In this document: positions 5,674-44,258 of the stretch, piece after piece
Layout of the letters: each line of letters opens with the position of its first letter
Position numbering within the stretch: position 1 is the first letter of the stretch
Source: Flavobacteriales bacterium
Lineage (GTDB): Bacteria > Bacteroidota > Bacteroidia > Flavobacteriales_D > Crocinitomicaceae
Length of the DNA stretch: 64,000 nt
Reading direction: 5' to 3'
NCBI GenBank assembly: GCA_947491305.1
Contig: CANLIL010000001.1
Coordinates: forward strand, 30,814 to 94,813
Translations under genes and position numbers: made by a program
The notes under the pieces: generated by a model
Told to the model about the DNA's origin: nothing
Seen by the model: the letters and a program-made list of their open reading frames with translations, nothing else
Database searches by the model: none

Positions 5674-6336
5674 CTATTTAGAAGGTTTAATAACTACAAA
5701 AACACCTCCATAACTTTTAGAGTCTTTGGATTTGTCAATTTTTCCTGAACTTAAAGGATAGCTTGTTTGTGAAACTGAATTGCTAACATTCCCTCCTACA
5801 CCAACAGCTTTGTTTTTTTCTATCTCCACAATAATATCGCAATGTGAAGCATAAGCAGATTGTGTGTCGTAAGTTACGCCAGCTTGGCGTGGATAGCATA
5901 CTAAATCACCAACTTCAACTTTTGTTTCGTTTGGTTTATAGCCCTTAAAACCACTAAGGTTTTGTTTTTTGTTTTTAATTGAATCTCTGATATAAACAGA
6001 ATGACTCGCATTGAATTTGAAATCATCAAAACCAGATTCCCGCATAACATAACTAATGAATGCAGCCGACCATGGTGTATTAATGTACCAACTATCGTTG
6101 TTGTTGATTTTAGCTCCTTTTTTCCAATAATCGCGAAGTCGTTGAATAGTATCTGAGTTACCTTCTTTTATTGATCCTTTGCCCCAGCTATCAAATTCGA
6201 GTTTAGCTAATTTAGCAGCGTTCTGGATTTTATTTTTACTATTTCCTCGCCTCAGTGTATAGAATGTTAATCCTACCACTAAAACGATTGCTACAACTGA
6301 CACACCAATTACTATATATTTTGTATTTTGACGCAT
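5674..6336 (-). CDS. membrane-anchored DUF2272-like putative cell-wall hydrolase
   Basis: N-terminal TM 'YIVIGVSVVAIVLVVGLTFY'. 'PWSAAFISYVM', 'GDLVCYPR', 'SHCDIIVEI' and 'GGNVSNSV' resemble DUF2272. Confidence 0.45.
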   Translation of the reverse strand: MRQNTKYIVIGVSVVAIVLVVGLTFYTLRRGNSKNKIQNAAKLAKLEFDSWGKGSIKEGNSDTIQRLRDYWKKGAKINNNDSWYINTPWSAAFISYVMRESGFDDFKFNASHSVYIRDSIKNKKQNLSGFKGYKPNETKVEVGDLVCYPRQAGVTYDTQSAYASHCDIIVEIEKNKAVGVGGNVSNSVSQTSYPLSSGKIDKSKDSKSYGGVFVVIKPSK

Positions 6337-6383
6337 TTTGAAAGAATAATAATTGAGGTTTAGTATTATTGGAAAACATAATG

Positions 6384-6506
6384 TTAATACGTGTCTGTGT
6401 AACGCGGCAAAGTTATTGTAATTCCTTTGTTGTTGATTCTCATATAGCTGTAAACGGCAATTAAGCCAAATACTACTCCTGCTGTGATTAAAACTTTATT
6501 ATTCAT
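6384..6506 (-). CDS. small single-pass membrane protein (40 aa; ORF trimmed to internal Met)
   Basis: MNNKVLITAGVVFGLIAVYSYM.. begins 6 nt after the stop of the upstream gene. The longer 60-aa version would overlap that gene. Confidence 0.4.
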   Translation of the reverse strand: MNNKVLITAGVVFGLIAVYSYMRINNKGITITLPRYTDTY

Positions 6507-6511
6507 TTTTT

Positions 6512-7183
6512 TTAATTTAAAAAGTAAATACTTGAAAGACCCAAAGTTAAGCCAATAAGCGCCCAAAAACTATTTTTTTGATATATTTTTTTTTTGTTTT
6601 CTACAACAATGTTATCCATGCTCTGAACTGTTAAATACTTATTTGAGTTTTTAACCTGAACAATAGGAACGGCTTTTTTCCACCATTTAGTTTTTTGACT
6701 ACCTATTGTTACACTCATGTCATTAGGAATAATCAAAGTGTCAATTTTAATTCCATCTAACAAAACTAAACCTCCGATTTCATATAGCGAATCTTTCTTA
6801 TGGAAGCGCTTAGGAACATTAATAGTGCCTTTCGGATATATTGTATCACTTTTGTAAATAGTGTCTCTGTAGCTTACAAAAATTGTGTCAAAAACAAACT
6901 TAGTTTCAATCTTTACTTTAGATTTTATTGATTTCCATTTTTCACCATCTAATCGAGCTTCTTTAAGTGCCGTTTTTAGATCAACAATGTTTTGATTTTG
7001 AATTGCAACAACTTCATTTTTTTCATTCAGGAAAGTTTTGTATTCTCCTTTTTGTCGCTCGAGTTTAGTTATTTCTTTCTGAGCTTTAGAAAGTTGTAAC
7101 GACTGATTCCAATAACACAAAACCGTCAAGAGTAAAAGGATAGCCGTTACAACTAAAACACGTACATAGATTTTGTTTCTCAT
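6512..7183 (-). CDS. bitopic membrane protein with coiled coil (lysis-cassette neighbour)
   Basis: N-terminal TM 'VRVLVVTAILLLLTVLCYW', a coiled coil ('LQLSKAQKEITKLERQKGEY') and a C-terminal TM 'FWALIGLTLGLSSIYFL'. It lies immediately downstream of the endolysin. Confidence 0.5.
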   Translation of the reverse strand: MRNKIYVRVLVVTAILLLLTVLCYWNQSLQLSKAQKEITKLERQKGEYKTFLNEKNEVVAIQNQNIVDLKTALKEARLDGEKWKSIKSKVKIETKFVFDTIFVSYRDTIYKSDTIYPKGTINVPKRFHKKDSLYEIGGLVLLDGIKIDTLIIPNDMSVTIGSQKTKWWKKAVPIVQVKNSNKYLTVQSMDNIVVENKKKIYQKNSFWALIGLTLGLSSIYFLN

Positions 7184-7196
7184 GGTTCTGTTTGTA

Positions 7197-7967
7197 TTAT
7201 TTGGTAATTTCTTTAATCCACTGATCTACTTTGTATGAAGGGCACGCTTTGTTTGAAAACTCATAGTGTCCGTGGTGAGTAGCAGCAGGAAGTTTGTCTT
7301 TAAACGCTTTGTAAATCAATTCTTGCGTTAGTCTTTGTTCTGGTGTTCGGTTGTCAAAAGATTTGATGTTTTTATCAATTCCACCAATATATGAAATATT
7401 AATAGAATCATAATTATGACCTGCTACTCCATTTGAAGGTAGGTTAAAGTCAACGGCATAAGTCCATTCCCCTTGTGGATTGATTATAATATGATAACCG
7501 GGTCTTGACCAACCTTTTGACTTTAAATGAAAATCAATTATTTGTTTTGTTGTTGCCGTTTGGTGCGAAGCTGTACAGTGCCAGATTATCTTTCTAATTT
7601 TTCTTTTGAAATCAAATCCATTAATCAATTTCACTAACTCCAAAGCTGAGGGAGAAGTTGGATACTTACCGTCAATTTTCGGGAACTTAGAAAAGTCAAT
7701 AACATCTTCATCTTCGAAATCTTCATCTTTACCACCTGTTGTTGCCGGGTTAATCATTACGATTTTACTCGATAACTTATCCCAAGTTCTTGATCCAACA
7801 ATACCATCGTCCAATAAACCATTTGCTCGTTGAAAAGCAATAACAGCCTTTTGAGTTACTTCACCAAAATTTTCAGTGATAGTAGGGTGAGTAAAAAAGC
7901 CTTTTTCTTTTAAAAGCTTTTGAAGTTCGGAAACATTTTTCCCTTTACTGCCTAATTTTAAAATCAT
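7197..7967 (-). CDS. endolysin: PG_binding_1-like domain plus N-acetylmuramoyl-L-alanine amidase (Amidase_2/PGRP)
   Basis: 'GSKGKNVSELQKLLKEKGF..DGIVGSRTWDKL' is a peptidoglycan-binding repeat. 'IIWHCTAS', 'GYHIII', 'SINISYIGG' and 'HYEFSNKACPS' are amidase_2 blocks. Confidence 0.8.
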   Translation of the reverse strand: MILKLGSKGKNVSELQKLLKEKGFFTHPTITENFGEVTQKAVIAFQRANGLLDDGIVGSRTWDKLSSKIVMINPATTGGKDEDFEDEDVIDFSKFPKIDGKYPTSPSALELVKLINGFDFKRKIRKIIWHCTASHQTATTKQIIDFHLKSKGWSRPGYHIIINPQGEWTYAVDFNLPSNGVAGHNYDSINISYIGGIDKNIKSFDNRTPEQRLTQELIYKAFKDKLPAATHHGHYEFSNKACPSYKVDQWIKEITK

Positions 7968-8101
7968 TTTTGTGAGTTTACTAAAACCTTAAAGTTAATT
8001 ATTGCCGTTAAGCCAAAAGTAATGATACCAACTATTACAAATATGGTATCAAGCTTTTCCTTGGTTGTTTTTTCTTTGAATTTTCTTTCTTGAACTATCA
8101 T
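7964..8101 (-). CDS. 45-aa single-pass membrane protein (holin-like candidate), below the ORF-track cutoff
   Basis: Hand translation gives MIVQERKFKEKTTKEKLDTIFVIVGIITFGLTAIINFKVLVNSQK. There are ATGA overlaps at both ends, with the GH19 gene upstream and the amidase gene downstream. Confidence 0.5.
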   Translation of the reverse strand: MIVQERKFKEKTTKEKLDTIFVIVGIITFGLTAIINFKVLVNSQK

Positions 8102-8853
8102 TTTACTGTTTTTTTGATTAAAAAATAAGCTCCTACTGACAAAGATACAACAAACGCACTAAACACCAATATCTTAACTAAATTATTGTTTGTTCCGTTT
8201 GATGGTTTAGCTTTTAATTTGGTTAAAATATTTTTCCACAATGCAAAATTCTTATTGATTTCAGATAAGCTTTTTGTTCCACCATTAACTGAAATTCTAG
8301 CAAGCCTTAAATCACCATCCCTAACAATATCAAAGGTTGATCTGCTTGTGCCATTTTTAGCATATTTACCGCCACGCTTTTTATTCATAAAGGTAGTGGC
8401 AATGTTAAACGAGTTTATTGGAACTAAGGCTAAATTAGCATTATTGATTAGGTTTATACCTAGCTTATCTCCGTAGTATTTATAATTGCTTTTACCAGTT
8501 AATTGAATAAGCCCACGACCGAAATAAGGTAATCCATTTTTATCAGTTCCTAAATTATAATAATTCGCTTTTCCGTTTGTGCTTCGGTAATAATCAAGCG
8601 CCCTTTGGCAAGGTTTACCAACATACGCTTTTCCTGTACTATTGCATAAATAGTCTGCCTCCCATCTTTGAAGCGAATAATCGCTTTCGGATTTAGCAGT
8701 AGCAAGCAAGTAAGCCAAATCAGAAATAGAATTAATTCCATCAGATTTTTGAGCGTAACGAAGCACCTGCTTAAGACTATCAGTGAATTGAGTAGATGCA
8801 CCGCTTTTTTTGTACAACTCAACTGCTTTATTTATATCAAAGTCTAATCCCAT
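8098..8853 (-). CDS. GH19 (chitinase-like) peptidoglycan hydrolase with C-terminal membrane anchor
   Basis: 'ATAKSESDYS' and 'GRGLIQLTGKSNYKYYG' match the GH19 lysozyme catalytic blocks. C-terminal TM 'ILVFSAFVVSLSVGAYFLI'. Confidence 0.7.
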   Translation of the reverse strand: MGLDFDINKAVELYKKSGASTQFTDSLKQVLRYAQKSDGINSISDLAYLLATAKSESDYSLQRWEADYLCNSTGKAYVGKPCQRALDYYRSTNGKANYYNLGTDKNGLPYFGRGLIQLTGKSNYKYYGDKLGINLINNANLALVPINSFNIATTFMNKKRGGKYAKNGTSRSTFDIVRDGDLRLARISVNGGTKSLSEINKNFALWKNILTKLKAKPSNGTNNNLVKILVFSAFVVSLSVGAYFLIKKTVK

Positions 8854-9806
8854 TTTCGTAAAATATAAATTAGTCCGGCAATAATACCTGATACAATTAG
8901 TGTAGGGTAAAGATTAAGTTTATTGTTTTTTGTAGGGTTGCTAAAGTTAGAATACTTATTTTCTAACACAATCCTTTTTTTAAGTTCTTCTTTTTCAATT
9001 TCATAGTTTTCAAGTTCTTTGTTACCCTCTAGTTCATTTTGAAGTTTTGAAATCATTATTGGATAAATCACAAATTTAATTGAAGTGTTTGCCTTGGCTA
9101 TAAATTGTAATCCAACATTTCCGTCAATCATATAATCATCGAAAAACTCAAGTGTAGAAGAAATATTTTGATATGGATCAATAGTTGGAACAAATGGGAA
9201 TTTTGTAACGTTACCATTAACATCTTTTTCAGTTCGTGTAAATGCTTCCAATAATTGATTTACATTACTGCTGTATATTTGAGTTTTACCAACAACGAAA
9301 GGCTCTGCTGTACTTTGTTGTAATATTTGAGAATAAGTTACTCCGGGAATAGAAGACGTTGGCTGAACCTCTCTTTTTGTATTGAAATTGTCAAAAAAAC
9401 TAGGGATTACTACCGTCCATTCTCCAATTCCACCAATAGGTAAAGCAGTATCTTTAAAAAGTTTCAATATTATATTCGGCGGATGTGAACTAGTTAGTAA
9501 TTCCCAAGCATCTACACCATTCCACACGATTAAATCTAAAGCAGTTGCGCCGTTTATTTTGAAGGATTTTTTTCCATTGATTTCAGCTAAAAACACTAGG
9601 TTATTTATGAAAGTATTTCCTACATACCATAAGATACCATCTAATAAAGTATTGTTGAGTTCTTGTAGTTGAGCGTTTGCATCAAATATTGTAACTAATT
9701 TGTCCTGTGGTGAATTATTTGAAACATTTATAATATAAGGGTTACTCAAATCCTTTTTTGAAGGATTAAGACCATTAATTTCATCTGATGTATCAAAATA
9801 ATTCAT
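8844..9806 (-). CDS. virion protein, paralog of the capsid candidate, with C-terminal membrane anchor
   Basis: About 95 aa align by eye at roughly 45% identity with the 26088..26816 product: 'AEPFVVGKTQIYSSNVNQLLEAFTRTEKDVNGNVTKFPFVPTIDPYQ..KFVIYP' versus 'QKPFVVGLTYLQSGSANQVLETLTLIAKDVNGNVNQKTLVPTVDPYQ..KIYFYP'. C-terminal TM 'LIVSGIIAGLIYIL'. Confidence 0.55.
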   Translation of the reverse strand: MNYFDTSDEINGLNPSKKDLSNPYIINVSNNSPQDKLVTIFDANAQLQELNNTLLDGILWYVGNTFINNLVFLAEINGKKSFKINGATALDLIVWNGVDAWELLTSSHPPNIILKLFKDTALPIGGIGEWTVVIPSFFDNFNTKREVQPTSSIPGVTYSQILQQSTAEPFVVGKTQIYSSNVNQLLEAFTRTEKDVNGNVTKFPFVPTIDPYQNISSTLEFFDDYMIDGNVGLQFIAKANTSIKFVIYPIMISKLQNELEGNKELENYEIEKEELKKRIVLENKYSNFSNPTKNNKLNLYPTLIVSGIIAGLIYILRKWD

Positions 9807-16372: not shown

Positions 16373-16774
16373 TTAAAGGTCTTCACCAAATAAGTACTCA
16401 AATGTAATTTGACCCTTGTTGGTATTACCATCAAAAACGGTCATAATTACTTTTTCAAGTTCGTTGTTGGAGTAGATGTACACGGAAATATTATTCCATT
16501 CTGCTTTTTTTTCACGCAAAAGCCTTTTTAGACTATTACGAATAAAAGGAGTTGCCATCAATTCTCTTCCCAACAAGTCGAACTTAACATTTAGGATCTC
16601 ATTAAAAGTTACTCTCTTAAGAGGTTTCCAATTCACAAGAACGTCATAAACAGGGTCGCAATTTTCATTTTCAGCCCTGATAGCTAACTGACAATCTTTG
16701 TTTTCAACTTTGTTTTCTTTTGCATATCGCTCGATAGCGTTACGCATGATTTTTACGGTTTGTTCTACTAGCAT
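16373..16774 (-). CDS. hypothetical protein
   Basis: 133-aa ORF in the structural operon. Confidence 0.5.
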   Translation of the reverse strand: MLVEQTVKIMRNAIERYAKENKVENKDCQLAIRAENENCDPVYDVLVNWKPLKRVTFNEILNVKFDLLGRELMATPFIRNSLKRLLREKKAEWNNISVYIYSNNELEKVIMTVFDGNTNKGQITFEYLFGEDL

Positions 16775-16797: not shown

Positions 16798-17295
16798 TTA
16801 ACCTAAAATGTATTTAAATGAATAACTTAAATCCAAAGGAACTCTAAAAAATAAAATTCCGCTTTTAACAACAAGGTTTCCATCTAATGTCAATAATGAA
16901 TTTTTACCGCCTAACAATAGATCAATACCAGTAGAAACCCAATTAATATCTTTCAATAAAATATCAATATCGAACGTGATATATGACTTTCCGTTTCTTT
17001 CAAGTGTTTGATTAATATTTGAATTGGAGATTACACCTACTTTATTGGAACGATTCAATAAAATGTCAAAGTTATATGATGCCAAAACAAACTGTAATTT
17101 ACTTGGATTATCAATTTCAACTGTTGCTCTAAGTTTAAGAATCTCTTTTGTTTTAGAGATAGTTTGAACACTTTTAACACTATAAGTGAAATTGTATAAA
17201 ATTTCAGATTGGTTTTTATAGTATCTTACAGTAGCTATTGCCCCTGCTGTAGCAGCAAGAGCAATACCTCCAAAAATCAAATATTTTTTTAACAT
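16798..17295 (-). CDS. N-terminally anchored protein, possible LEA_2/WHy-like beta-sandwich
   Basis: TM or signal 'IFGGIALAATAGAIA'. 'LRATVEIDNPSKLQFVLASYNFDILLNRSNKVGVISNS..GKSYITFDIDI' resembles the LEA-14/NDR1-type pattern (tentative). Confidence 0.35.
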   Translation of the reverse strand: MLKKYLIFGGIALAATAGAIATVRYYKNQSEILYNFTYSVKSVQTISKTKEILKLRATVEIDNPSKLQFVLASYNFDILLNRSNKVGVISNSNINQTLERNGKSYITFDIDILLKDINWVSTGIDLLLGGKNSLLTLDGNLVVKSGILFFRVPLDLSYSFKYILG

Positions 17296-20530: not shown

Positions 20531-21028
20531 TTATTTACTCGCTTTTTGTCCTTTAATAAATTCTGCCTCATAAGAAGCTTTACTTGGGGATTTTTTCAAT
20601 GCTTCTGGTAATTGTTTATTATAAAAACCTGCTGCATAAGCCCACTTCAATCGTGCATTATTTCTTGTTATTGAATTTGCACTAGGATAAGAAGCAAAAA
20701 TCAAACGAGCTGCTGCATCCGAATCTCGACCGAATTTACCATCGGCATCAATAGGAAATTTAACATTAACTCCATTTGGCGCTTTTTTTCTCAACCCACT
20801 CCATCCTCTCCATTGAGCGATTTCATTAATAATTACTTGAACAGCTGTTGCCCCTTCGCCTTCGCTACCTTTTTCTACCTTTTCAGAAAGAATATCTCCG
20901 GGTTTGCTTTCGTCGTTTTCTTTTGGCTTGCTTGTTTTCTTGTAATCCTTGAACATAATAAACCCAATACCTCCTGCTAAGGCTACAAATCCTGAAATGA
21001 TTAAAGCTATTTTTTGTCCTGTTGTCAT
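20531..21028 (-). CDS. N-terminally anchored protein with peptidoglycan-binding-like C-terminal domain (paralog A)
   Basis: TM 'IALIISGFVALAGGIGFIMF'. 'GEGATAVQVIINEIAQWRGWSG..KFPIDADGKFGRDSDAAARLIF' fits the PG_binding-like pattern (G..V..(L/I)Q..LN..DG.FG..(S/T)..A). It is a clear paralog of the 21057..21632 product. Confidence 0.5.
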   Translation of the reverse strand: MTTGQKIALIISGFVALAGGIGFIMFKDYKKTSKPKENDESKPGDILSEKVEKGSEGEGATAVQVIINEIAQWRGWSGLRKKAPNGVNVKFPIDADGKFGRDSDAAARLIFASYPSANSITRNNARLKWAYAAGFYNKQLPEALKKSPSKASYEAEFIKGQKASK

Positions 21029-21056
21029 TTGATAAGTTTATTATTGTTCTTACTTG

Positions 21057-21632
21057 TTATTTACTCGCTTTACCCCCTCTAATGAACTCGTTTGTGTAAT
21101 CTGCTCTACGAGAAACATTTTTCAATCCATCAGGGAAAGGTTTTTTATAAAATCCTGCTGCATACGCCCACTTCATACGAGCTTTATGTCTTGTTATGTT
21201 TAAATCTGCTTGATAATTGTCAAAAATCAAACGAGCGGCAGTATCAGAGTTTGTTCCAAAATCACCATCAGTACTAATAGGGAATTTAACAGATTTGCCG
21301 TTTGCCGCTTTTTTGTTTTGACCACTCCATCCTCTCCATCTTGCAATTTCATTGATTATTACTTGTACACCTTTGGCTGCATCACCTTTACTACCTTTCT
21401 TTACAACCTCGTCTGCTATGTCAGAACTTGAAGGTTTTGTAGTTTCTGTTTCTGTTTCTGTTTGAGAATTACTAGATGAATTATTTGAAACTTGTGATAC
21501 CACAGGCAACAAATCCTCTTCAATAATTTCTTCATCTTTTTTGGCACGGTTTCTAAAAACCAAGAATCCAACACCACCAACTAAAGTTACTACTCCAGCA
21601 ACTATTAAAGCTATTTTTTGTCCTTTTGTCAT
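21057..21632 (-). CDS. N-terminally anchored protein with peptidoglycan-binding-like C-terminal domain (paralog B)
   Basis: TM 'IALIVAGVVTLVGGVGFLVF', 'TETETET' linker, 'KGDAAKGVQVIINEIARWRGWSG..KFPISTDGDFGTNSDTAARLIF', and the shared 'ARMKWAYAAGFY'. Confidence 0.5.
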   Translation of the reverse strand: MTKGQKIALIVAGVVTLVGGVGFLVFRNRAKKDEEIIEEDLLPVVSQVSNNSSSNSQTETETETTKPSSSDIADEVVKKGSKGDAAKGVQVIINEIARWRGWSGQNKKAANGKSVKFPISTDGDFGTNSDTAARLIFDNYQADLNITRHKARMKWAYAAGFYKKPFPDGLKNVSRRADYTNEFIRGGKASK

Positions 21633-21648
21633 TTTACTTTTTTTTAGG

Positions 21649-21891
21649 TTATTTTTTAACTCCTGCTAATTCTGTTGGTCTTGTTGAGCTACTAGAAGCT
21701 AAATTCATCCCTGCCTCCACTGCTGTAACAGTTCCAAGTGTTTCAGGAATATAATTCTCAATTTCTTCCTCTAATCTTTTTTCAGCGGCCTTAGCTTTCT
21801 TTTTGTTTCTGTAATAAACAAATGCTCCGAATCCTGCTCCTACTAATACTAATCCGCCTAGCAGTAAAGCTATTTTTGTTCCTGTTTTCAT
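21649..21891 (-). CDS. small N-terminally anchored membrane protein
   Basis: 'MKTGTKIALLLGGLVLVGAGFGAFVYY' is the same anchor type as the two preceding genes. Confidence 0.5.
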   Translation of the reverse strand: MKTGTKIALLLGGLVLVGAGFGAFVYYRNKKKAKAAEKRLEEEIENYIPETLGTVTAVEAGMNLASSSSTRPTELAGVKK

Positions 21892-22157
21892 TTTGTTGGG
21901 TTTAAAATTTCTTTTTGTTTAATTAACTCGTCAATTTCCTTTTGTTTAGGTAGGAAATAAAAATACCTTGGGAGAATCCCTACAGCAATACTACCAGCTA
22001 CTAAATAGCCAACACCTCTTAAAAAACCTCCACCTGTACTTCTTGAATAAAGAACGCCAAGCACTGAACCTAGTACATACACTGCTGAATCTTGTGCAGA
22101 TAGAACTTTCTTCTTTGCTTTTAATTGTTCTACTGATAAATTAGATAAATTCTCCAT
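21888..22157 (-). CDS. small two-TM membrane protein
   Basis: Hydrophobic segments 'AVYVLGSVLGVLY' and 'GVGYLVAGSIAVGIL'. ATGA overlap with the downstream gene. Confidence 0.5.
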   Translation of the reverse strand: MENLSNLSVEQLKAKKKVLSAQDSAVYVLGSVLGVLYSRSTGGGFLRGVGYLVAGSIAVGILPRYFYFLPKQKEIDELIKQKEILNPTK

Positions 22158-22159
22158 TT

Positions 22160-22612
22160 TTAAATTTTAGTAATTATAAATTCAACACGTCTGTTTGTTG
22201 CTCTTCCTTCTTCTGTTGAATTATCTGCTATCGGCTCGGTCATTCCTTTACCTAGTGCCGTAATTCTTTCAGGAGCAACATTTTTAGAAATCAAATACTT
22301 CATAACCTCATTGGCTCTCCCTTCGCTTAGTTTTTGATTTGCACTCGCAGAACCTTTATTATCAGTGTGACCAATAATTTGAATCGAATATTGAGGATTA
22401 TCTGTAAGCGCCACCGCTAATTCATCAAGGAAAGGAAAAGAAACAGGTTTAATGTCTGCTTTACCAAACTCAAACAATAAATTATCGTAAGCGTCCTTAA
22501 TAGTTTCGGTAATAGTTTTCTTTTTAAAAAACTTATAATATAGTAATATAGCTCCTGTAATGGTTACAAGGCTAATACCTGCTACTATTGCTATTTTGGT
22601 TGTTTTATTCAT
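22160..22612 (-). CDS. N-terminally anchored OmpA-C-like peptidoglycan-binding protein
   Basis: TM 'IAIVAGISLVTITGAILLY'. 'IQIIGHTDNKGSASANQKLSEGRANEVMKYLISKNVAPERITALGKGMTEPIADNSTEEGRATNRRVEFII' is a textbook OmpA/MotB C-terminal domain pattern. Confidence 0.8.
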   Translation of the reverse strand: MNKTTKIAIVAGISLVTITGAILLYYKFFKKKTITETIKDAYDNLLFEFGKADIKPVSFPFLDELAVALTDNPQYSIQIIGHTDNKGSASANQKLSEGRANEVMKYLISKNVAPERITALGKGMTEPIADNSTEEGRATNRRVEFIITKI

Positions 22613-23061
22613 TATCTTAAACCTAAATTTTTCATTCTTTTTATTACATTCTTATAACACCAATCAAAATTACACTGCGACTTTTTAGCGTCCTCGTGTT
22701 CAAGTTCTTGAATAAGCGTTCTTCCTTCTTCTTTATAGCCTTTTGTGTTATAATAATTATTCAACTTAATAAGCTTATCATCACTTAAAAGCATAAATAA
22801 ATCACGAACCTCTGGATAAGCGTCGTCAAAAACCCCCCAACCTTGAATCATTGTTCTTAAATAATCGGCATCAGCCTTTGGGTTGTATTTTGCAGCATCA
22901 TCCTCTGTTCCTGAATTTGGTGAAGTAGTAGTCCCACTTTCTTCAAAACCTCTATTCAAAACTTTTTTCTTTGCTGCCGAACGTACAAATAAATAGACAA
23001 CTACTCCTGCTACAATAACAGAAGAACCAATAATCAAAGTATTTCTAATTGCTTTTTCCAT
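22612..23061 (-). CDS. N-terminally anchored protein, possible annexin-like repeat
   Basis: TM 'LIIGSSVIVAGVVVYLFV'. 'GWGVFDDAYPEVRDLFMLLSDDKLIKLNNYYNTKGYKEEGRTLIQELEHE' loosely fits an annexin-type repeat (tentative). Confidence 0.3.
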   Translation of the reverse strand: MEKAIRNTLIIGSSVIVAGVVVYLFVRSAAKKKVLNRGFEESGTTTSPNSGTEDDAAKYNPKADADYLRTMIQGWGVFDDAYPEVRDLFMLLSDDKLIKLNNYYNTKGYKEEGRTLIQELEHEDAKKSQCNFDWCYKNVIKRMKNLGLR

Positions 23062-23063
23062 GA

Positions 23064-23531
23064 TTAAAAGTTTTTCATTTTATCCAATGCTTCGTTTAAA
23101 TCAGACCAGTTATCATTTTCCAAAAAGCTTTCTAAATAAGATTGTAAATCTCTTTGGTACAATTGATAAAATCTGAAAGCAACATAACTAACATTTATTT
23201 TAGTTCCTGCTGATTTTATAGCCCCAACGGCTTCTTCTTCGTCGTCGTTATAAAAACTCTTTGCGTTATAAATATTATATGCCAACTGGTTAGCCTTTGT
23301 TTGACTAATAGTAACCTTTGATTTATTTTCTGAATAAGGCAAAGAAGATAAATATTGTTCTCTTCTAAATTCGTCAATGGCTCTGTCTGCTTCACGATCT
23401 TCTTTAGAATCTGTTAAGCCTACTGCATTGAATATCGGCTTAATAATACCAAAGTAAGCCAATGTAAGCGCAGCAACTCCCACAACACCAATTGCTATCC
23501 ATTTAACTGTTTCACTATTATCGTTTGGCAT
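23064..23531 (-). CDS. N-terminally anchored protein, possible annexin-like repeat
   Basis: TM 'WIAIGVVGVAALTLAYFGII'. 'NDDEEEAVGAIKSAGTKINVSYVAFRFYQLYQRDLQSYLESFL' fits DE..(L/I)(I/V).(I/L)...(S/T)......(I/V)...(F/Y)...Y...L...L (tentative). Confidence 0.3.
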   Translation of the reverse strand: MPNDNSETVKWIAIGVVGVAALTLAYFGIIKPIFNAVGLTDSKEDREADRAIDEFRREQYLSSLPYSENKSKVTISQTKANQLAYNIYNAKSFYNDDEEEAVGAIKSAGTKINVSYVAFRFYQLYQRDLQSYLESFLENDNWSDLNEALDKMKNF

Positions 23532-24297
23532 AGTCGTAGTTTTTAATAAATTTATCTAAGGTTTTGAACCTATTTAGCGTTTCAGGATTAGTTGATGCAC
23601 TTTGAAAAACATTCAGAAAAACGTTGTAAGCGTCGATTCTTGGATAGCCCAAAGCGAGGTATATTCTGAGACCGTTTATGTCTGCCTGAATTTCTGACTC
23701 AGGATTTTTATTTACGTAAAAATGACAAAACTCATGACACAAAATAGCCATTCGCATAGGAATACTCATATCCTTAAAATGGAATTTAGAAACCTCAATC
23801 CTTCCATTATCCTTACTTATTCTAGCAGGTGTAGGAAGCGGATTACCTATTTCATTTCGAATAACATCAAAATAATCAATTCTAAATTGCAGGTCGTCAC
23901 TTTTATATATGTCGCCTTTTTTTGAACAAGATAAAACGCCTGCACGCTCACAAAATTCTTGAGCAAATTTTATAAAACTTTCTGTTTTATCATTGAACCT
24001 AATTTTTTCACGATGTAGTGGTAAAACTTGTGTTTCTAATACTTTAAAAGTAGAGCCATCCTCTCCTTTTCCTTGCATATTATCATTGTTATAAACCAAC
24101 AAAAACCCTAACTCTGGTGCTTGTGGCATTCTAATGTAGAAATCTTGTCTCCCATCAATATTAGTGTATCTCTTAGTGTAAAATGTATGATTTTGATCAG
24201 CATCAGTAAATTTAATCCATAGCTTTTCTGGTTGATTGGTTTCAATCACAACTTTAAGCGTACACGGCTTTCCTCCTAATCGTTTTTCAATCAACAT
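23518..24297 (-). CDS. HExxH zinc metallopeptidase-like protein
   Basis: 'MAILCHEFCHFYVN' (HExxH). No TM segment. It is embedded in the membrane-protein cluster. Confidence 0.5.
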   Translation of the reverse strand: MLIEKRLGGKPCTLKVVIETNQPEKLWIKFTDADQNHTFYTKRYTNIDGRQDFYIRMPQAPELGFLLVYNNDNMQGKGEDGSTFKVLETQVLPLHREKIRFNDKTESFIKFAQEFCERAGVLSCSKKGDIYKSDDLQFRIDYFDVIRNEIGNPLPTPARISKDNGRIEVSKFHFKDMSIPMRMAILCHEFCHFYVNKNPESEIQADINGLRIYLALGYPRIDAYNVFLNVFQSASTNPETLNRFKTLDKFIKNYDYAKR

Positions 24298-24307
24298 ATC
24301 TTTAATT

Positions 24308-24580
24308 TTATTCAGAAACTTCTTCCGGGCTACTGTTTTTAGTAACCAAGTAAATTCCGTAAATTAATATTCCTACTGCAATCACTCCTAAAAAGTTATT
24401 TGTAACAACTTTACTTTTTAAAGATGAAACTTTTTCTTTTAAAATAATTTCTTCTCCAGAAGCATTAAACAATACCTCGTTCTCACCATTTAAAAAGTTA
24501 CCTTTCAATTGTTCTTCATTAAGCCAATCCCTGAAAGATAGCTTAGTACTTGATTGTTTAAAAGCTTGATTAGCTGTCAT
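24308..24580 (-). CDS. small tail-anchored membrane protein
   Basis: C-terminal TM 'FLGVIAVGILIYGIYLV'. Confidence 0.5.
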   Translation of the reverse strand: MTANQAFKQSSTKLSFRDWLNEEQLKGNFLNGENEVLFNASGEEIILKEKVSSLKSKVVTNNFLGVIAVGILIYGIYLVTKNSSPEEVSE

Positions 24581-24585
24581 TTTAA

Positions 24586-24795
24586 TTATTTAAGGTGGGT
24601 AAATAGTAATTTTCCTGCAACAAGTCCGATAAGTCCAGCGATATAAATATTTTGTCTCGATGCAATTCCAATCAATACGCCTACAGCACCACCGATTAAA
24701 GCCCCTTGAATGTCTTGTTCTGCTCTTTTTTTAAGATTTTCTGCAAAACTATAGTGATTCAAGTCTCGAATAAACTGAACATTTTTATCTACCAT
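24586..24795 (-). CDS. small membrane protein (ORF trimmed to internal Met)
   Basis: MVDKNVQFIRDL.. starts 1 nt after the upstream gene's stop. Gly-zipper-like hydrophobic segments 'ALIGGAVGVLIGIA' and 'IAGLIGLVAGKLLF'. Confidence 0.45.
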   Translation of the reverse strand: MVDKNVQFIRDLNHYSFAENLKKRAEQDIQGALIGGAVGVLIGIASRQNIYIAGLIGLVAGKLLFTHLK

Positions 24796-24796
24796 T

Positions 24797-25453
24797 TTAC
24801 TTATTTCTTTTTGCGTAAAAATAAATTCCAGCACCAAGAATACCCACAACAGCAACACCAATTAAGATGTTACGTGTATAGGTACGTCTTCTAGCCTCTT
24901 CTTCTCTTCTTCTAGCCTCTTCCTCTTGTCGTTGCATTTCTTGTTGAAAACCAATCGTGCTTTGATTGAGTATTTGACTAGAAGCATTTCTATTTCCAAT
25001 ACCACTCAGTAAGTTACCAGCAATTCCAAGGATGTCTTCTTTATTATTTCTAAAGAAATCACCTGCCTTAGAACTTGTTGTACCATCAGGATTTTTTGTC
25101 TTACCAAATAAACGTTTTAAGAAACCAATCTTTTCGCCTGAGTCTGCTGATTTTTTCTTTTTATTAAAGAAATTTTGATAAGTTTCTTTGTTTGCAAAAA
25201 TCAAAATACTAAGGTTCTTTAGCAACTCTTTTGATTTCTCGGTGTTTTTACGTAAAACCTGAACAATAGCGTTAGATAACAACTCATTGTCTGCGTCTGT
25301 GGGAAAAGGAATATTACTTTGGCGAAACGCCTCAATAACAGCCTCTTTATCTTCACGGATTAAACTTCCAAGAGCTACGATAACATCATTGCTTTTGCCT
25401 GCGGTATTAGCTGTATTAAAGTTGCTCCAAATATCTGCTTTTTGGTATATCAT
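24797..25453 (-). CDS. tail-anchored membrane protein
   Basis: 'EEEARRREEEARRR' (encoded by a 20-nt tandem duplication at about 24888-24927), then C-terminal TM 'ILIGVAVVGILGAGIYFY'. Confidence 0.5.
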   Translation of the reverse strand: MIYQKADIWSNFNTANTAGKSNDVIVALGSLIREDKEAVIEAFRQSNIPFPTDADNELLSNAIVQVLRKNTEKSKELLKNLSILIFANKETYQNFFNKKKKSADSGEKIGFLKRLFGKTKNPDGTTSSKAGDFFRNNKEDILGIAGNLLSGIGNRNASSQILNQSTIGFQQEMQRQEEEARRREEEARRRTYTRNILIGVAVVGILGAGIYFYAKRNK

Positions 25454-25459
25454 GGCTTA

Positions 25460-42800: not shown

Positions 42801-43665
42801 CAATAATAAATGGGTTCATTATTTTCAGAAAAACAGGCATTACTATTCGGTTATTTTCTGATTTAAGTGTATAGTACTTTGCTGTTCCAAAAGAAGATGT
42901 AAAATAGAATCCAGCTCCAAAATCGCCAAATCCTGTTTTTGTATTCTGAAATTCTTTATCAAAAATTGTAAATATAGAATTTGTTCCATGGTAGCAAATT
43001 AACGGCTCTCCGTTCTCGTCAACTACTTTAGAAACATTAGATAAATTTTCAATAATATTATTTGTAATATCCAAAATCTTTCTATCTTTGCATAGAGCAT
43101 TCTGATTTGCACGATATGACGGTTTAGCATGTACGGTTTTCAGGATGCTTTCTTTTTCTACAACCCCTGTATCATGTATTATTAAATCACCATCGTTCTC
43201 TTCTTGAACGGTGATTCGATAAATATATTCAACTCCTTCAAAGATGAAGTTAGATATGTAAACCCAAAACTTTTTAATATTTGGTTTTAAGTCTAGTTTA
43301 CGATTAGCTTCTTCTTCTATTTTTATTGCATTTTCTAATATTTCAGGAAGGTAGTCAATAGAAGAAAATAAAACATCAGGTCTAGCATGTCTGCAAATAT
43401 GTTTTAATCCACTTCTGCTTAATTGAATATTGTTCCCGTCCTTATCTATTTTAAATAAACTATGAAGTTTAATATATGATTTCTCATAATCAAAGTTTCT
43501 TTCTTTGTGATTATTCACAATAGTAATTGGCTTATTCAATAAATTTAGAATATTTGCTTTTTCAAAATTTCCAAACCACGCTATAAACTCAGGAGTTCTC
43601 ACCAATTTGTATTGCTCAGGAGTAAGGTTGCTTGGCTTTCCGTTTGGTGCTAATAATTGTGTCAT
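39889..43665 (-). CDS. giant polyvalent protein: two ART-PolyVal-like (ADP-ribosyltransferase-fold) modules, ParB/Srx-like nuclease domain and C-terminal 'GPPHSEGG' module
   Basis: Duplicated leader 'LLAPNGKPSNL(T/N)PEQYKLVR..(F/W)FG(N/D)(F/W)EK'. 'VDENGEPLICYHGTNSIFTIFD..GAGFYFTSSFGTAKYY..MPVFLKIMNPFII' and 'VDENGEPLVVLHATTHDFNVFS..EGIFFTDSISVAETYIY..MPVFLSLQDPLIV'. 'LLLTEGNHRLNAL' is ParB-like. Modules are separated by GGG(G)(V/I) tracts. Confidence 0.6.
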   Translation of the reverse strand: MTQLLAPNGKPSNLTPEQYKLVRTPEFIAWFGNFEKANILNLLNKPITIVNNHKERNFDYEKSYIKLHSLFKIDKDGNNIQLSRSGLKHICRHARPDVLFSSIDYLPEILENAIKIEEEANRKLDLKPNIKKFWVYISNFIFEGVEYIYRITVQEENDGDLIIHDTGVVEKESILKTVHAKPSYRANQNALCKDRKILDITNNIIENLSNVSKVVDENGEPLICYHGTNSIFTIFDKEFQNTKTGFGDFGAGFYFTSSFGTAKYYTLKSENNRIVMPVFLKIMNPFIIELNWEKLSEQSIINYKGLEGLSDLDKDFLNNTFKDDYRPSKAITKYFSDYGFQELLIRNDFDGVVINRINIYEKPDINHENQIQYFNEIVVFEPNQIKLTDGTNTTFDASNPDIRFDEGGGVPALLAPNGKPSNLNPEQYKLVRGDFFKKFFGDWEKLALTKINDSGIDEVSLKRLEEGVSKAVDENGEPLVVLHATTHDFNVFSNDEDTKRRGVSKEGIFFTDSISVAETYIYKNLTPTPKQIKSGVFFKENANIMPVFLSLQDPLIVDAGFTNFNSIGEKHKHINDFISIAKKHNKDGLIVKNVKDLGSAVDFLKDELFATTYVVFKPNQIKSAVGNNGNFDTNNPDIRYEGGGFVSFKDKYNKKFGYPTSTSHNLEQISKDTRVSLKGLQQIYNKGIGAFKTNPSSVRPTVKSKEQWAMARVYSAVMGGKASKIDSNELKMKNGGGIPDNYIHVVNNFGSGETLNKVFNDWSNIQSEKDQANWSMRVKLLRFGTYGQYDLLYVMEKFDFDKSDKINGILKRDFKKEVESAYDNEIITINKNNEMKKESETFGGGGGVNDNFPIVKLKIYANNPSYNKRYFESEALFDFSNEKIKFINIDTFGDDYRFNWIKVKENSKGFYIDFEYYGGRIYIENYINLFDQEKNKKKLAGGGGVAAKSSHTLNSNKGKIAISLDKRWSDINILLVPISFLVKCSEFNRRNDPKYSLDDSAKNIENIKKSFIENGITEPLILNYIRNESKLLLTEGNHRLNALIELEVPYYPVCVTVIDSWNRGKGKGVKTKVKPYMISEINKSKYLSVDNFEGVPYVNIENNHVDVNETDTLTINVPLLIRLFEYIREDVDNDAQIHFLTENLLKLKDKELSMSDYDSIIDGIKIKKTAEKILALGGLAEGPPHSEGGIPLVVKSTGQNIEIEGGELVVNKFSSSETEKFEFEGKDLTPCEIVSELNSMDNNGVEIDCNKILGRFKK

Positions 43666-44258
43666 TAATTTAATTTTTTATCAATTTGTGAACCTATTTT
43701 TGAATAAATAGGGAGATTTGAATGTGGGTCTTTTACTTTACCGATTGCAGGTTCAATTATTTCAACGCCTAAATCTTTGAATATGTCATAATAGGCATTT
43801 ACTTTTGATTCAGTAATGTATTTATTTCCACCCCAACCCCAAGAACCTTTTACTGCAAATAATAATGCGTTAGGGAATTTTTCTTTTACACTACTAACTA
43901 ATCCATCAATATCTTCTTTTGAATTAAATCCACCATTTGTTCCGATATTAATTATAATTGAATTTACATCTTTTGAAACAGGATAATCGTCAACGGCACT
44001 TTTTAACCAAGACAAACTTTTACCACCTTCCCACAAACTTTCTTTACCACCTTTTTCGTTAATTCTTTTGGCTTTTTCCGAGTTCTTGTCTATGAATGGG
44101 GTTTGACTATCACCTATTATATAATTCTTTTCTTTATCAGTACCTCTTTTGCTTGATTTACCACTTTTTCTTCTGTGTCTAACAACTAATACCGTTGTTA
44201 GACCAAGAATAACAACACCAACGATACTGAATAAAATTATTTTTTGAGTTCTATTCAT
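43665..44258 (-). CDS. N-terminally anchored SGNH/GDSL-like hydrolase (divergent)
   Basis: TM 'IILFSIVGVVILGLTTVLVV', with 'YIIGDSQTPF' (block I), 'INIGTNGG' (block III-like) and 'VKDPHS' (block V-like). Confidence 0.45.
   Translation of the reverse strand: MNRTQKIILFSIVGVVILGLTTVLVVRHRRKSGKSSKRGTDKEKNYIIGDSQTPFIDKNSEKAKRINEKGGKESLWEGGKSLSWLKSAVDDYPVSKDVNSIIINIGTNGGFNSKEDIDGLVSSVKEKFPNALLFAVKGSWGWGGNKYITESKVNAYYDIFKDLGVEIIEPAIGKVKDPHSNLPIYSKIGSQIDKKLN

What the first reader, a model, noticed from the sequence alone, without database searches (positions are those of the whole stretch)
20531..24297. Battery of membrane-anchored cell-wall-interacting domains (OmpA-like, two PG-binding-like paralogs, HExxH protease)
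Seven consecutive genes, six of them encoding N-terminally anchored proteins, share a similar anchor in four cases ('M(T/K).G.KIAL(I/L)..G...(L/V).G(G/A)'; found at 20531, 21057, 21649 and, more loosely, 22160). They display a textbook OmpA C-terminal peptidoglycan-binding domain (22160..22612), two paralogous 'VQVIINEIA.WRGWSG..KFPI..DG.FG..SD.AARLIF' domains, and two possible annexin-like repeats. A soluble HExxH metallopeptidase follows. OmpA-like domains are cellular envelope staples and are unusual in a virus. The set suggests either a virion-membrane surface that grips and remodels peptidoglycan during entry, or a set of proteins that re-wire the host envelope during infection.
Basis: partly seen in the sequence, partly recalled or inferred. 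Interest (0 to 1): 0.65.

Follow-up and report, generated by a model that had tools for sequence, protein, structure and literature searches.

The report
Membrane-anchored wall- and lipid-binding phage proteins
A tight row of eight genes in an uncultured freshwater phage encodes small membrane-anchored proteins carrying cell-wall-binding domains and annexin-type lipid-binding repeats, next to a conserved zinc protease; they are probably parts of an internal viral membrane used for cell entry, though this has not been tested.

Summary
Window 20531-24297 (minus strand) has eight tightly packed genes. Six begin with one hydrophobic helix, and four of these share the cap G-x-K-I-A-(L/I).

- **p150** is a true OmpA-like domain (Pfam E=1e-23).
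- **p165 and p191** are 51%-identical paralogs. Their well-folded domain resembles PG_binding_1 only remotely.
- **p149 and p155** are single annexin repeats. Family profiles hit annexins at E=4e-7 and 2e-45, and five orthologs pass Pfam's Annexin cut-off.
- **p259** is a beta-sandwich plus a domain with an HExxH motif that is 95% or more conserved.

The protease and the two annexin-like proteins occur across a wide metagenomic clade (over 1000 protease clusters, contigs of 33-127 kb). No protein-level match was found in deposited phage genomes. The OmpA and PG-binding-like genes fill a variable slot where relatives carry other anchored proteins.

The genes follow the capsid-protein candidate with gaps of 43 nt or less. 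The real lysins lie 12-15 kb away.

Most likely (about 0.5) these are internal-membrane virion proteins used to dock on peptidoglycan and host membrane during entry. A role in the infected cell's envelope is not excluded. Topology and virion presence are untested.

The parts
20531..21028 (-). p165: N-terminal anchor (MTTGQKIALII...), short linker, and a C-terminal ~120-aa PG_binding_1-like domain (paralog B).
   Evidence: TM at residues 7-25. 51% identical to p191. Member of alignments A1 and A3.
21057..21632 (-). p191: N-terminal anchor, disordered S/T/E-rich linker, and a C-terminal PG_binding_1-like domain (paralog A).
   Evidence: AF2 gives pLDDT above 90 for residues 65-191 and below 50 for 1-64. 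Foldseek best credible hits are 6tci (SleB N-domain) and 9h68 (SleC). The profile reaches the triple PG_binding_1 protein P0166 at E=5e-4. Pfam gives no hit.
21649..21891 (-). p80: N-terminal anchor with the same cap, then a short charged or Ser-rich tail. No recognisable domain.
   Evidence: TM at 7-25. Only weak matches driven by the TM helix.
21888..22157 (-). p89: small protein with two Gly-rich hydrophobic segments and a charged C-terminus. No family assigned.
   Evidence: Hydropathy 1.62 at residues 44-62. No Pfam, PHROG or NCBIfam hit. Start codon overlaps the stop of the OmpA gene region by design of the operon.
22160..22612 (-). p150: N-terminal anchor plus an OmpA-like peptidoglycan-binding domain (residues 46-141).
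   Evidence: PF00691 E=1.1e-23. Domain-level NCBIfam matches to YiaD, TssL-long, MotB/MotD and Pal. PHROG 7897 E=5e-28. GHTD, GRA and NRRVE motifs are present.
22612..23061 (-). p149: N-terminal anchor, linker, one annexin-like repeat (~residues 56-125) and a Cys-containing tail.
   Evidence: Profile A5 hits annexin VI at E=4.3e-7; seven of the ten matches listed (E up to 10) are annexins. G74-W-G76 and invariant E123 sit at the positions of the annexin type II Ca2+-site (read from the sequence).
23064..23531 (-). p155: N-terminal anchor plus one annexin-like repeat with a degenerate Ca2+ loop (KSFYNDDEEE in place of GxGTDE).
   Evidence: Family profile A6 hits annexin VI at E=2.4e-45 and annexins A4/A5 at ~1e-24 to 1e-26. 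Orthologs in five relatives pass the Pfam Annexin gathering score. The window's own copy gives no Pfam hit.
23518..24297 (-). p259: soluble two-domain protein. N-terminal beta-sandwich (1-93, CBM4/6-like) plus a C-terminal alpha/beta domain with HEFCH, a predicted zincin metallopeptidase.
   Evidence: AF2 pLDDT 90.4, pTM 0.89. Foldseek matches only the beta-sandwich. H188, E189, H192, E202, D206 and the TPARI 156-160 stretch are conserved in at least 95% of sequences. 15 of 40 homologs give weak SprT-like hits. Over 1000 homolog clusters exist.
24308..26816 (-). Upstream context in the same gap-free run: four C-terminally anchored proteins, a 69-aa Gly-zipper protein, and the capsid-protein candidate (26088-26816) that heads the run.
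   Evidence: TM positions. Intergenic gaps of -14 to 43 nt from 26816 down to 18820. The capsid candidate is 62-65% identical across the clade. Its fold was not tested here.
27078..27108 (-). 13-bp-stem hairpin followed by a T-run, inside the 347-nt gap between the ATPase gene and the capsid candidate. Likely boundary of the transcription unit.
   Evidence: Terminator-like scan and gap table. The number of terminator-like sites in the region is not above chance, so this one rests on its stem length and position.

Best explanation
The block encodes the N-terminally anchored part of the membrane proteome of an uncultured freshwater virus of about 100 kb, probably infecting Bacteroidota and apparently tailless. 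It is expressed late, together with the capsid-protein candidate.

**Shown**
- Six proteins carry one N-terminal hydrophobic helix followed by a basic cluster.
- Their outer domains are one OmpA-like peptidoglycan binder, two paralogous PG_binding_1-like domains and two single annexin repeats.
- A soluble beta-sandwich/HExxH protein with a conserved zinc site is encoded at the head of the block.
- The protease and both annexin-like proteins are clade-wide. The wall-binding proteins occupy a variable slot, and their anchors can be exchanged by recombination.

**Inferred**
- The proteins are inserted into the host-derived lipid vesicle that lies under the capsid.
- At infection that membrane is exposed, either as a tube (as in PRD1) or by fusion (as in PM2).
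- The annexin repeats then bind acidic host phospholipid with Ca2+ and bring the two membranes together.
- The OmpA-like and PG_binding_1-like modules hold the delivery structure on the peptidoglycan.
- The zinc protease cuts a wall or envelope peptide, or else matures virion proteins.

Which face of the viral membrane the domains occupy is not resolved.
For: **Domain identities.**

**Operon context.** Gaps are -14 to 43 nt from the capsid candidate (26816) to 18820. A 347-nt gap and a 13-bp hairpin lie upstream.

**Synteny across the clade.** The order ATPase, capsid candidate, tail-anchored proteins, protease, annexin-like proteins, variable slot, p341 is kept in relatives with only 34-55% protease identity.

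**Density of membrane proteins.** Across the 46 related loci searched there are 131 unique N-anchored and 253 unique C-anchored single-pass proteins. No portal, HK97 capsid or tail family was hit in the structural region; the only hit was a weak terminase-like match of the ATPase (E=5.6e-6).

**Not the lysis cassette.** The true lysis enzymes are PG_binding_1+Amidase_2 (7197-7967), GH19 (8098-8853) and DUF2272 (5674-6336). They sit 12-15 kb downstream.

**Topology hint.** K/R residues number 1.8 before and 3.5 after the helix, and 78% of proteins have more after. By the positive-inside rule (von Heijne) this argues against export of the C-terminal domains to the periplasm of the producing cell. 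Wall contact would then happen from the particle.

**Modularity.** In P0007/9/10/11 the anchor is 10/32 identical while the domain is 101-117 of 120 identical (117/120 in P0007).

**Precedents.**
- PM2 P3/NO16 GP18 and PM2 P6/NO16 GP10 are anchored minor capsid proteins between shell and membrane (PMC13552765).
- PM2 entry is Ca2+-dependent and is thought to involve fusion (PMC6356626).
Against: - No particle, proteome or transcript data exist. No RNA run holds the stretch.
- The virus is uncultured, and nothing in deposited phages matches its protease, capsid candidate or annexin-like proteins.
- The capsid candidate and ATPase were not verified here; PDB sequence searches gave nothing.
- The tailless state rests on absence of hits within this 64-kb window plus an earlier unchecked note.
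- Topology is ambiguous. K/R density per residue is similar on both sides (0.28 against 0.23). The tail-anchored class must break the positive-inside rule in one orientation.
- In a related contig (L050) the anchored OmpA gene lies beside a GH19 lysin, which fits an exit or envelope role.
- The PG_binding_1 assignment is remote. The window's own p155 lacks the GxGT calcium loop.
- The protease domain has no fold match among the top hits, and only sub-threshold family hits.
Confidence: 0.5

Rival explanations
1. The proteins act in the envelope of the infected cell, not in the particle. Anchored in the inner membrane with their domains in the periplasm, they tie the membrane to peptidoglycan (in the manner of MotB, TssL or ExeA). 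They would stabilise or re-wire the envelope late in infection, or take part in timed exit together with the lysins.
For: - The architecture of one TM helix plus an OmpA-like domain is that of inner-membrane wall anchors. NCBIfam gives domain-level matches to MotB/MotD and TssL-long.
- In L050 the anchored OmpA gene lies between a GH19 lysin and a GDSL-like hydrolase. In L051 it lies beside an SLT-like gene.
- p80 gives a weak match to an Rz-like spanin PHROG, E=0.01.
- p89 has the size and shape of a small two-helix membrane protein.
Against: - In the window the block is 12-15 kb from the lysins and sits inside the capsid-led run.
- The basic cluster right after the helix (4-7 K/R) disfavours export of the domains.
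- The helix has no MotB-type Asp (read from the sequence).
- No o-spanin partner or lipobox was seen.
- The spanin hit covers only the TM helix and the basic stretch.
Confidence: 0.25
2. The variable-slot genes (OmpA, p80, p89, p165, p191) are accessory 'moron'-type genes. Examples would be superinfection exclusion or protection of the infected cell's wall against other phages' lysins. Only the protease and the annexin-like proteins would be structural.
For: - The slot content differs between relatives, while the flanks are conserved.
- Against L001, the OmpA (74%), p191 (73%) and p80 (71%) proteins are more diverged than the core genes (93-95%).
- Anchors are swapped by recombination.
Against: - There are no separate promoter-like gaps. 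The genes are translationally coupled or overlap with core genes.
- The slot always holds N-anchored proteins with the same kind of anchor, which points to a common destination.
- PG-binding-like anchored proteins recur in 15 of the 46 related loci searched, at different places in the battery.
Confidence: 0.15
3. The element is not a virus with an internal membrane. It is a tailed phage or another mobile element whose many small membrane proteins serve another purpose, and the capsid and ATPase assignments are wrong.
For:
- Polyvalent proteins (ART-PolyVal, SNF2, zeta toxin) also occur on conjugative elements.
- Only 64 kb of a genome of about 100 kb was seen.
Against: - Relatives are filed as viral contigs in IMG/VR.
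- The window carries lysins, fibre-like or beta-helix proteins and a P-loop ATPase with a weak terminase-like match.
- No conjugation gene was hit.
- Gene order from ATPase to fibres is conserved in contigs of 33-127 kb.
Confidence: 0.07

Closest known systems
Membrane proteins of internal-membrane phages (PRD1 P7/P16, PM2 P3/P6/P7, NO16 GP10/GP18/GP11)
   Same: These are small single-pass proteins encoded next to the capsid gene. Some are anchored at the N-terminus and some at the C-terminus. Wall-acting functions are carried by the particle for entry (PMC13552765, PMC6356626).
   Different: - Here the wall modules are non-catalytic binders (OmpA-like, PG_binding_1-like) rather than hydrolases.
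- Annexin repeats and a zincin are added.
- The genome is 5-10 times larger.
- No sequence similarity to those phages was found.
- Presence in the particle is not shown.
Inner-membrane peptidoglycan anchors of trans-envelope machines (MotB/PomB, T6SS TssL-long/TagL, T2SS ExeA/GspA)
   Same: One TM helix plus a linker and an OmpA-like or PG_binding_1 domain that fixes a membrane machine to the wall. NCBIfam gives domain-level matches.
   Different: - p150 is much shorter (150 aa).
- It has no MotB Asp in the helix.
- It falls below every equivalog cut-off.
- It is encoded in a virus structural operon.
- Its charge distribution is the opposite of MotB's.
Bacterial annexins (Kodavali et al. 2014, PMC3894181)
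   Same: These are single- or few-repeat annexin domains, mainly in Bacteroidetes, and some have TM regions. The motif A-x-x-(M/I)-x-G-x-G-T-D-E ... D/E is kept in many clade members.
   Different: - That survey found about 30 homologs in 17 bacteria and none in viruses.
- Here the repeat is a core gene pair of a large virus clade.
- It is always one repeat on an N-terminal anchor.
- In the window's p155 the calcium loop is degenerate.
PG_binding_1 domains of spore cortex lytic enzymes SleB/SleC and of phage endolysins
   Same: Three-helix core with the pattern G-S-x-G ... V-Q ... D-G-x-F-G ... A-A. Best fold matches are 6tci (target-normalised TM-score 0.68) and 9h68 (rmsd 2.0 Å over 62 columns). 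The phage's own amidase carries a canonical copy.
   Different: - There is a ~13-residue beta-hairpin insert and an extra C-terminal helix.
- No Pfam hit.
- hhalign against the phage's own PG_binding_1 fails.
- The family has only 29 clusters at 50% identity among 1.84 billion proteins.
Minimal zincins of the SprT-like / DUF45 / M48-M56 kind
   Same: A beta-hairpin segment ('TPARIS..NGRIEVS') is followed by an active-site helix with HExxH and a nearby acidic ligand. There are recurrent weak SprT-like, PhageMetallopep and M56 hits.
   Different: - All hits fall below family thresholds.
- It is fused to a CBM-like beta-sandwich.
- The third ligand appears to be Glu/Asp (E202/D206) rather than His.
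- The substrate is unknown.

Membership tests
OmpA family (PF00691) | Profile match above the curated gathering score | tested here: met
   83.9 bits against a cut-off of 27.2, E=1.1e-23, covering profile positions 1-98 of 98.
OmpA family (PF00691) | Conserved wall-contact residues (Asp of the TD motif, Arg of the RA motif, NRRVE) | tested here: met
   GHTD 81-84, GRA 98-100 and NRRVE 140-144 are present. That these residues contact the diaminopimelate moiety comes from established structures of Pal and OmpA (own knowledge).
OmpA family (PF00691) | Binds peptidoglycan | not testable with these tools
   Needs a pull-down with the recombinant domain.
PG_binding_1 (PF01471) | Profile match above the gathering score | tested here: not met
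   No hit for p165 or p191, nor for any of the 19 family members, even at E up to 10.
PG_binding_1 (PF01471) | Three-helix fold like solved PG-binding domains | tested here: inconclusive
   The only Foldseek hits with probability above 0.8 are the PG-binding domains of SleB (6tci) and SleC (9h68), but with E of 0.6-1.0.
PG_binding_1 (PF01471) | Sequence link through intermediate profiles | tested here: inconclusive
   The A3 profile reaches P0166 at E=5e-4 library-wide, in three stretches. P0166 has three PG_binding_1 repeats (Pfam E=1.6e-44). hhalign probability is only 39%, and it fails against the phage's own PG_binding_1.
Annexin (PF00191) | Profile match above the gathering score | tested here: inconclusive
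   The window's p149 and p155 are not matched individually. Five orthologs in relatives score 25.6-31.3 bits against a cut-off of 25.
Annexin (PF00191) | Family profile recognises solved annexins specifically | tested here: met
   - A5 (p149 family): annexin VI at E=4.3e-7; seven of the ten matches listed (E up to 10) are annexins.
- A6 (p155 family): annexin VI at E=2.4e-45; all 60 listed hits are annexins.
Annexin (PF00191) | Type II Ca2+ site: GxGT loop plus an acidic residue about 38 positions downstream | tested here: inconclusive
   - p149 has G74-W-G76-V and an invariant E123 at the right spacing (allowing a 4-residue insert).
- p155 has lost the loop (KSFYNDDEEE) but keeps E138.
- Many relatives have the full G-x-G-T-D-E.
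Annexin (PF00191) | Four-repeat core disc | tested here: not met
   Each protein has one repeat. Whether they oligomerise was not tested.
Zincin metallopeptidase (HExxH) | HExxH plus a third ligand, conserved across the family | tested here: met
   H188, E189, H192, E202 and D206 are at least 95% conserved in 35 unique sequences down to 34% identity. They are invariant in 40 closer sequences.
Zincin metallopeptidase (HExxH) | Assignment to a curated peptidase family or a zincin fold match | tested here: inconclusive
   - SprT-like in 15 of 40, PhageMetallopep in 4 of 40 and M56 in 3 of 40, all below threshold.
- Top Foldseek hits cover only the N-terminal beta-sandwich.
- The PDB profile search is empty.
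Virion membrane protein of an internal-membrane phage | Encoded in the late structural unit with the capsid gene | tested here: inconclusive
   A gap-free run extends from the capsid candidate, but the candidate's fold and the timing of expression were not tested.
Virion membrane protein of an internal-membrane phage | Present in purified lipid-containing particles | not testable with these tools
   No cultured member exists. There are no matches in deposited phages.
Holin/endolysin/spanin lysis cassette | Adjacent to the endolysin, with an i-/o-spanin pair or holin | tested here: not met
   The lysins are at 5674-8853, 12-15 kb away. Only a weak spanin hit covering the TM helix was found for p80.
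MotB-type stator protein | Conserved Asp in the TM helix plus an OmpA-like domain | tested here: not met
   The helix IAIVAGISLVTITGAILLY has no Asp. MotB/MotD models match only the OmpA-like domain and fall far below their cut-offs.

The most novel reading that the evidence does not exclude
Single annexin repeats tethered by a transmembrane helix are a core, ancient part of the entry machinery of a large, undescribed lineage of tailless, membrane-containing viruses of aquatic Bacteroidota. Together with exchangeable wall-binding modules and a zinc protease, they would form a calcium-triggered device. That device would dock the viral membrane on the host's membranes and wall and drive fusion or tube insertion. 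These would be the first virus-encoded annexins. Such viruses could also explain the patchy, Bacteroidetes-centred spread of bacterial annexins.
Probability: 0.2. Interest if true: 0.85.

Novelty: new variant of a known kind. Interest (0 to 1): 0.6.

Why it matters
Membrane-containing phages are thought to be abundant in water, yet few are cultured. How their lipid vesicle crosses the wall and meets the host membranes is known only in outline, from PRD1 and PM2.

This block offers a defined and testable parts list for that step in a widespread virus group that is absent from the deposited phage genomes searched. The list has non-catalytic peptidoglycan anchors, calcium/lipid-binding annexin repeats and a conserved zinc protease.

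It also puts annexin repeats into a virus. The last systematic survey of prokaryotic annexins found none in viruses (PMC3894181).

Finally, the anchor-plus-exchangeable-domain design and the variable slot suggest an evolvable host-interface cassette.

Tried and rejected
**Searches that found nothing**
- Megablast of 12 kb against deposited phages gave nothing.
- tblastn of the protease, the capsid candidate and a canonical annexin-like ortholog against deposited phages gave nothing.
- A back-translated pattern search for p191 in IMG/VR gave nothing.
- PDB profile searches for the PG-binding-like family and the protease family were empty or spurious.
- PDB searches for the ATPase and the capsid candidate gave nothing useful.
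- No RNA-seq run holds the stretch.

**Comparisons that failed or misled**
- hhalign of the PG-binding-like profile against the phage's own PG_binding_1 domain failed.
- hhalign of the p155 profile against the p149 profile, with anchors included, aligned only the TM helices. The domain-only comparison was weak (probability 18%). The link between the two therefore rests on both matching annexins.
- My first local iterative searches with anchors included drifted onto other anchored proteins. I replaced them with domain-only profiles.
- The Foldseek runs of the protease model were dominated by the beta-sandwich and said nothing about the catalytic domain.

**Readings rejected**
- Lysis cassette: rejected on distance from the lysins.
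- MotB-type stator: rejected because the helix has no Asp.
- Cleavable signal peptides: unlikely, because the hydrophobic stretch is 19-20 residues long and is directly followed by 4-7 basic residues.

Full report
**What is there**

Window 20531-24297 holds eight genes on the minus strand. In order of transcription they are:

| Protein | Coordinates |
|---|---|
| p259 | 23518-24297 |
| p155 | 23064-23531 |
| p149 | 22612-23061 |
| p150 | 22160-22612 |
| p89 | 21888-22157 |
| p80 | 21649-21891 |
| p191 | 21057-21632 |
| p165 | 20531-21028 |

- A hydropathy scan gives one N-terminal helix in six of them. p89 has only weak Gly-rich internal segments, and p259 has no helix.
- Spacing is -14 to 28 nt within the block. 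It is -14 to 43 nt all the way from the capsid-protein candidate (26088-26816) down to 18820.
- Upstream of that candidate lie a 347-nt gap and a hairpin with a 13-bp stem (27078-27108).
- No promoter-like or terminator-like excess lies inside the run.
- I read this as one late transcription unit headed by the capsid candidate. That is an inference from spacing only.

**The anchors**

- p165, p191, p80 and, more loosely, p150 start M-x-x-(G/T)-x-K-I-A-(L/I). A Gly-rich helix follows, ending in aromatic residues, and then 4-7 Lys/Arg.
- A relaxed form of the cap occurs four times in the six-frame translation of the 64-kb window, and only at these four N-termini. The pattern was derived after the fact, so this describes rather than tests.
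- The same cap heads proteins with unrelated outer domains in distant relatives. Examples are L004 'MALGKGAKIAII' and L005 'MNKGLKITIG'.
- In four p191 orthologs the anchor is only 10/32 identical, while the domain is 101-117 of 120 identical (117/120 in P0007). The anchor and the domain therefore recombine as modules.

**The domains**

- **p150** is an OmpA-like domain by every test (Pfam E=1e-23; NCBIfam domain-level matches to YiaD, TssL-long, MotB and Pal). The usual wall-contact motifs are present.
- **p165 and p191** are paralogs, 51% identical. AlphaFold gives a confident compact domain for residues 65-191 (pLDDT above 90) after a disordered linker.
  - The only Foldseek matches with probability above 0.8 are the PG_binding_1 domains of SleB (6tci, target-normalised TM-score 0.68 over 89 columns) and SleC (9h68). 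Their E-values are 0.6-1.
  - A domain-only profile (A3) searched against 1.84 billion representatives finds just 29 clusters. The weakest (E=5e-4, three matched stretches) is a protein with three canonical PG_binding_1 repeats.
  - Pfam itself finds nothing. hhalign against the phage's own endolysin PG_binding_1 domain fails.
  - I therefore call the domain 'PG_binding_1-like, remote', not a member.
- **p149.** A six-sequence profile hits annexin VI at E=4e-7, and seven of the ten matches listed (E up to 10) are annexins.
- **p155.** A domain-only iterative search over 46 related loci gave an alignment (A6) that hits annexins down to E=2e-45. Five orthologs pass Pfam's Annexin gathering score.
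  - Many relatives read '...A-M-K-G-W-G-T-D-E...'.
  - The window's p155 has lost that loop but keeps the downstream acidic residue.
  - p149 keeps G-W-G and the invariant E123.
- **p259** folds with pLDDT 90 into a beta-sandwich (1-93) plus an alpha/beta domain.
  - Fold searches recognise only the sandwich, which is CBM4/CBM6-like.
  - The second domain carries 'TPARIS..NGRIEVS....PMRMAILLHE(F/Y)xH....E..AD'. This stretch is nearly invariant in 35 unique sequences that fall to 34% identity overall.
  - 15 of 40 homologs give sub-threshold SprT-like hits.
  - A working zinc peptidase is the most economical reading. Its family and substrate remain open.

**Core and variable parts**

- p259 has more than 1000 homolog clusters at 50% identity or more in metagenomes.
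- Forty IMG/VR contigs of 10.9-85 kb carry it at 34-55% identity.
- In all of them it sits in a run of small N-anchored and C-anchored proteins.
- An annexin-like protein follows it directly, or one gene later, in at least 22 loci.
- In the window's near relatives the whole block is syntenic.
- In more distant ones (L004, L005) the order is conserved up to p149 and again from p341. The space between holds other N-anchored proteins.
- The OmpA gene and the two PG-binding-like genes thus fill a variable slot.
- PG-binding-like anchored proteins nevertheless recur in 15 of the 46 related loci searched, at various places in the battery.
- Short homologs of p150 number over 1000 in metagenomes. The two whose contigs were examined are anchored: one lies in a clade member (L051) and one sits next to a GH19 lysin (L050).
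- Deposited phage genomes hold no match to the protease, the capsid candidate or the annexin-like protein.
- Only 22 of 50,697 deposited records match the OmpA domain, and several of those look like bacterial contigs.

**Context**

- The window has 32% G+C. Nearly all genes up to about 49 kb lie on the minus strand, and a plus-strand block follows at about 50-56 kb.
- It carries polyvalent proteins, fibre-like or beta-helix proteins and a P-loop ATPase with a weak terminase-like hit.
- Three wall hydrolases lie at 5.7-8.9 kb.
- The stretch is found in lake and river metagenomes from 11 studies.
- Between 16798 and 26044, about 16 of 19 genes encode proteins with hydrophobic helices.
- Apart from that weak terminase-like match of the ATPase, no tailed-phage hallmark family was hit in the structural region.
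- Earlier notes of this scan call the genome apparently tailless. I did not verify that beyond the window.

**How it most likely works**

- Known internal-membrane phages encode many small anchored proteins beside the capsid gene.
- They carry wall-acting proteins in the particle: the PRD1 transglycosylase and the NO16 GP11 lysozyme.
- They place both C-anchored (PM2 P3, NO16 GP18) and N-anchored (PM2 P6, NO16 GP10) proteins between shell and membrane (PMC13552765).
- Entry is by a membrane tube (PRD1) or by Ca2+-dependent fusion (PM2) (PMC6356626).
- On that model the block is the N-anchored set of the viral membrane. The annexin repeats dock on host phospholipid, the OmpA-like and PG-binding-like modules grip the wall, and the zincin cuts wall or envelope peptides or matures virion proteins.

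On topology, 131 unique N-anchored proteins of the clade have 1.8 K/R before the helix and 3.5 after it, and 78% have more after. By the positive-inside rule this argues against export of the domains in the producing cell. That would favour action from the particle. However, charge density per residue is similar on both sides, so topology stays open.

**Rivals**

- A role in the infected cell's envelope or in exit (about 0.25).
- An accessory or exclusion role for the slot genes (about 0.15).
- A wrong call of the virus type (about 0.07).

None is excluded without proteomics or topology data.

**Novelty**

- The kind, membrane-anchored wall-interacting proteins of a lipid-containing phage, is known.
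- Three things are new in the variant: non-catalytic binders in an exchangeable slot, TM-tethered single annexin repeats as core genes, and a conserved sandwich-zincin. All occur in a large clade absent from the deposited phage genomes searched.
- The 2014 survey of bacterial annexins found none in viruses (PMC3894181).
- Other notes of this scan report anchored annexins in smaller virus-like elements of Bacteroidota. This agrees with my result but is not independent proof.

Noticed in passing
L003:15310-16503: A close relative carries an IS605-family OrfB/TnpB gene (Cas12f-like TNB domain) on the opposite strand, inserted between the homologs of 16798-17295 and 16373-16774. The window has no such insert.
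   Followed up: no
window 16798-17295: An N-anchored 165-aa protein with a sub-threshold LEA_2 (WHy-like) match (E=8.8e-4). It is conserved across the clade at 25-34% identity, together with the soluble 133-aa protein that follows it (16373-16774).
   Followed up: partly
window 43665-44980; L050:10530-11887: Window 43665-44258 (N-anchored, 197 aa) and 44255-44980 have 75% and 56% identical homologs in contig L050, directly after its anchored OmpA gene. The second homolog carries a Lipase_GDSL_2 hit, so the window may encode an SGNH/GDSL-type hydrolase beside an anchored partner.
   Followed up: partly
window 24586-24795: A 69-aa protein with two Gly-zipper helices (YMGG-like Gly-zipper, E=3e-4, below cut-off). 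The long TTG-started ORF 24586-24861 overlaps the upstream gene and is probably not the real start.
   Followed up: partly
L004:12309-13103; L005:12337-13146; P0143: The variable slot of distant relatives holds N-anchored 264-269-aa proteins with a second PG_binding-like motif (G-D-I-F-R-Q-W-V-N ... D-L-D-V-S-G-D-F-D-N-S-F-M-R-K-A-W). In P0143 this motif is fused upstream of the p191-type domain. There is no Pfam hit.
   Followed up: partly
P0142, P0156, P0158 (metagenomic proteins): Some members of the p191-type domain family have no anchor. One has two tandem copies (449 aa). Others have the domain at the N-terminus of ~273-aa proteins with an unknown C-terminal part.
   Followed up: no
46 related loci (L004-L049): Both N-anchored and C-anchored proteins follow the same design: a Gly-rich helix, aromatic residues, then a basic cluster. 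C-anchored proteins (253 unique) outnumber N-anchored ones (131 unique). One of the two classes must break the positive-inside rule, and no explanation was found.
   Followed up: partly
window 7197-7967, 8098-8853, 5674-6336: Three separate wall hydrolase candidates lie in a row at the end of the structural region: PG_binding_1+Amidase_2, a GH19-like protein, and DUF2272. The GH19-like gene overlaps, by 10 nt, the end of the anchored capsid-paralog gene 8844-9806.
   Followed up: no
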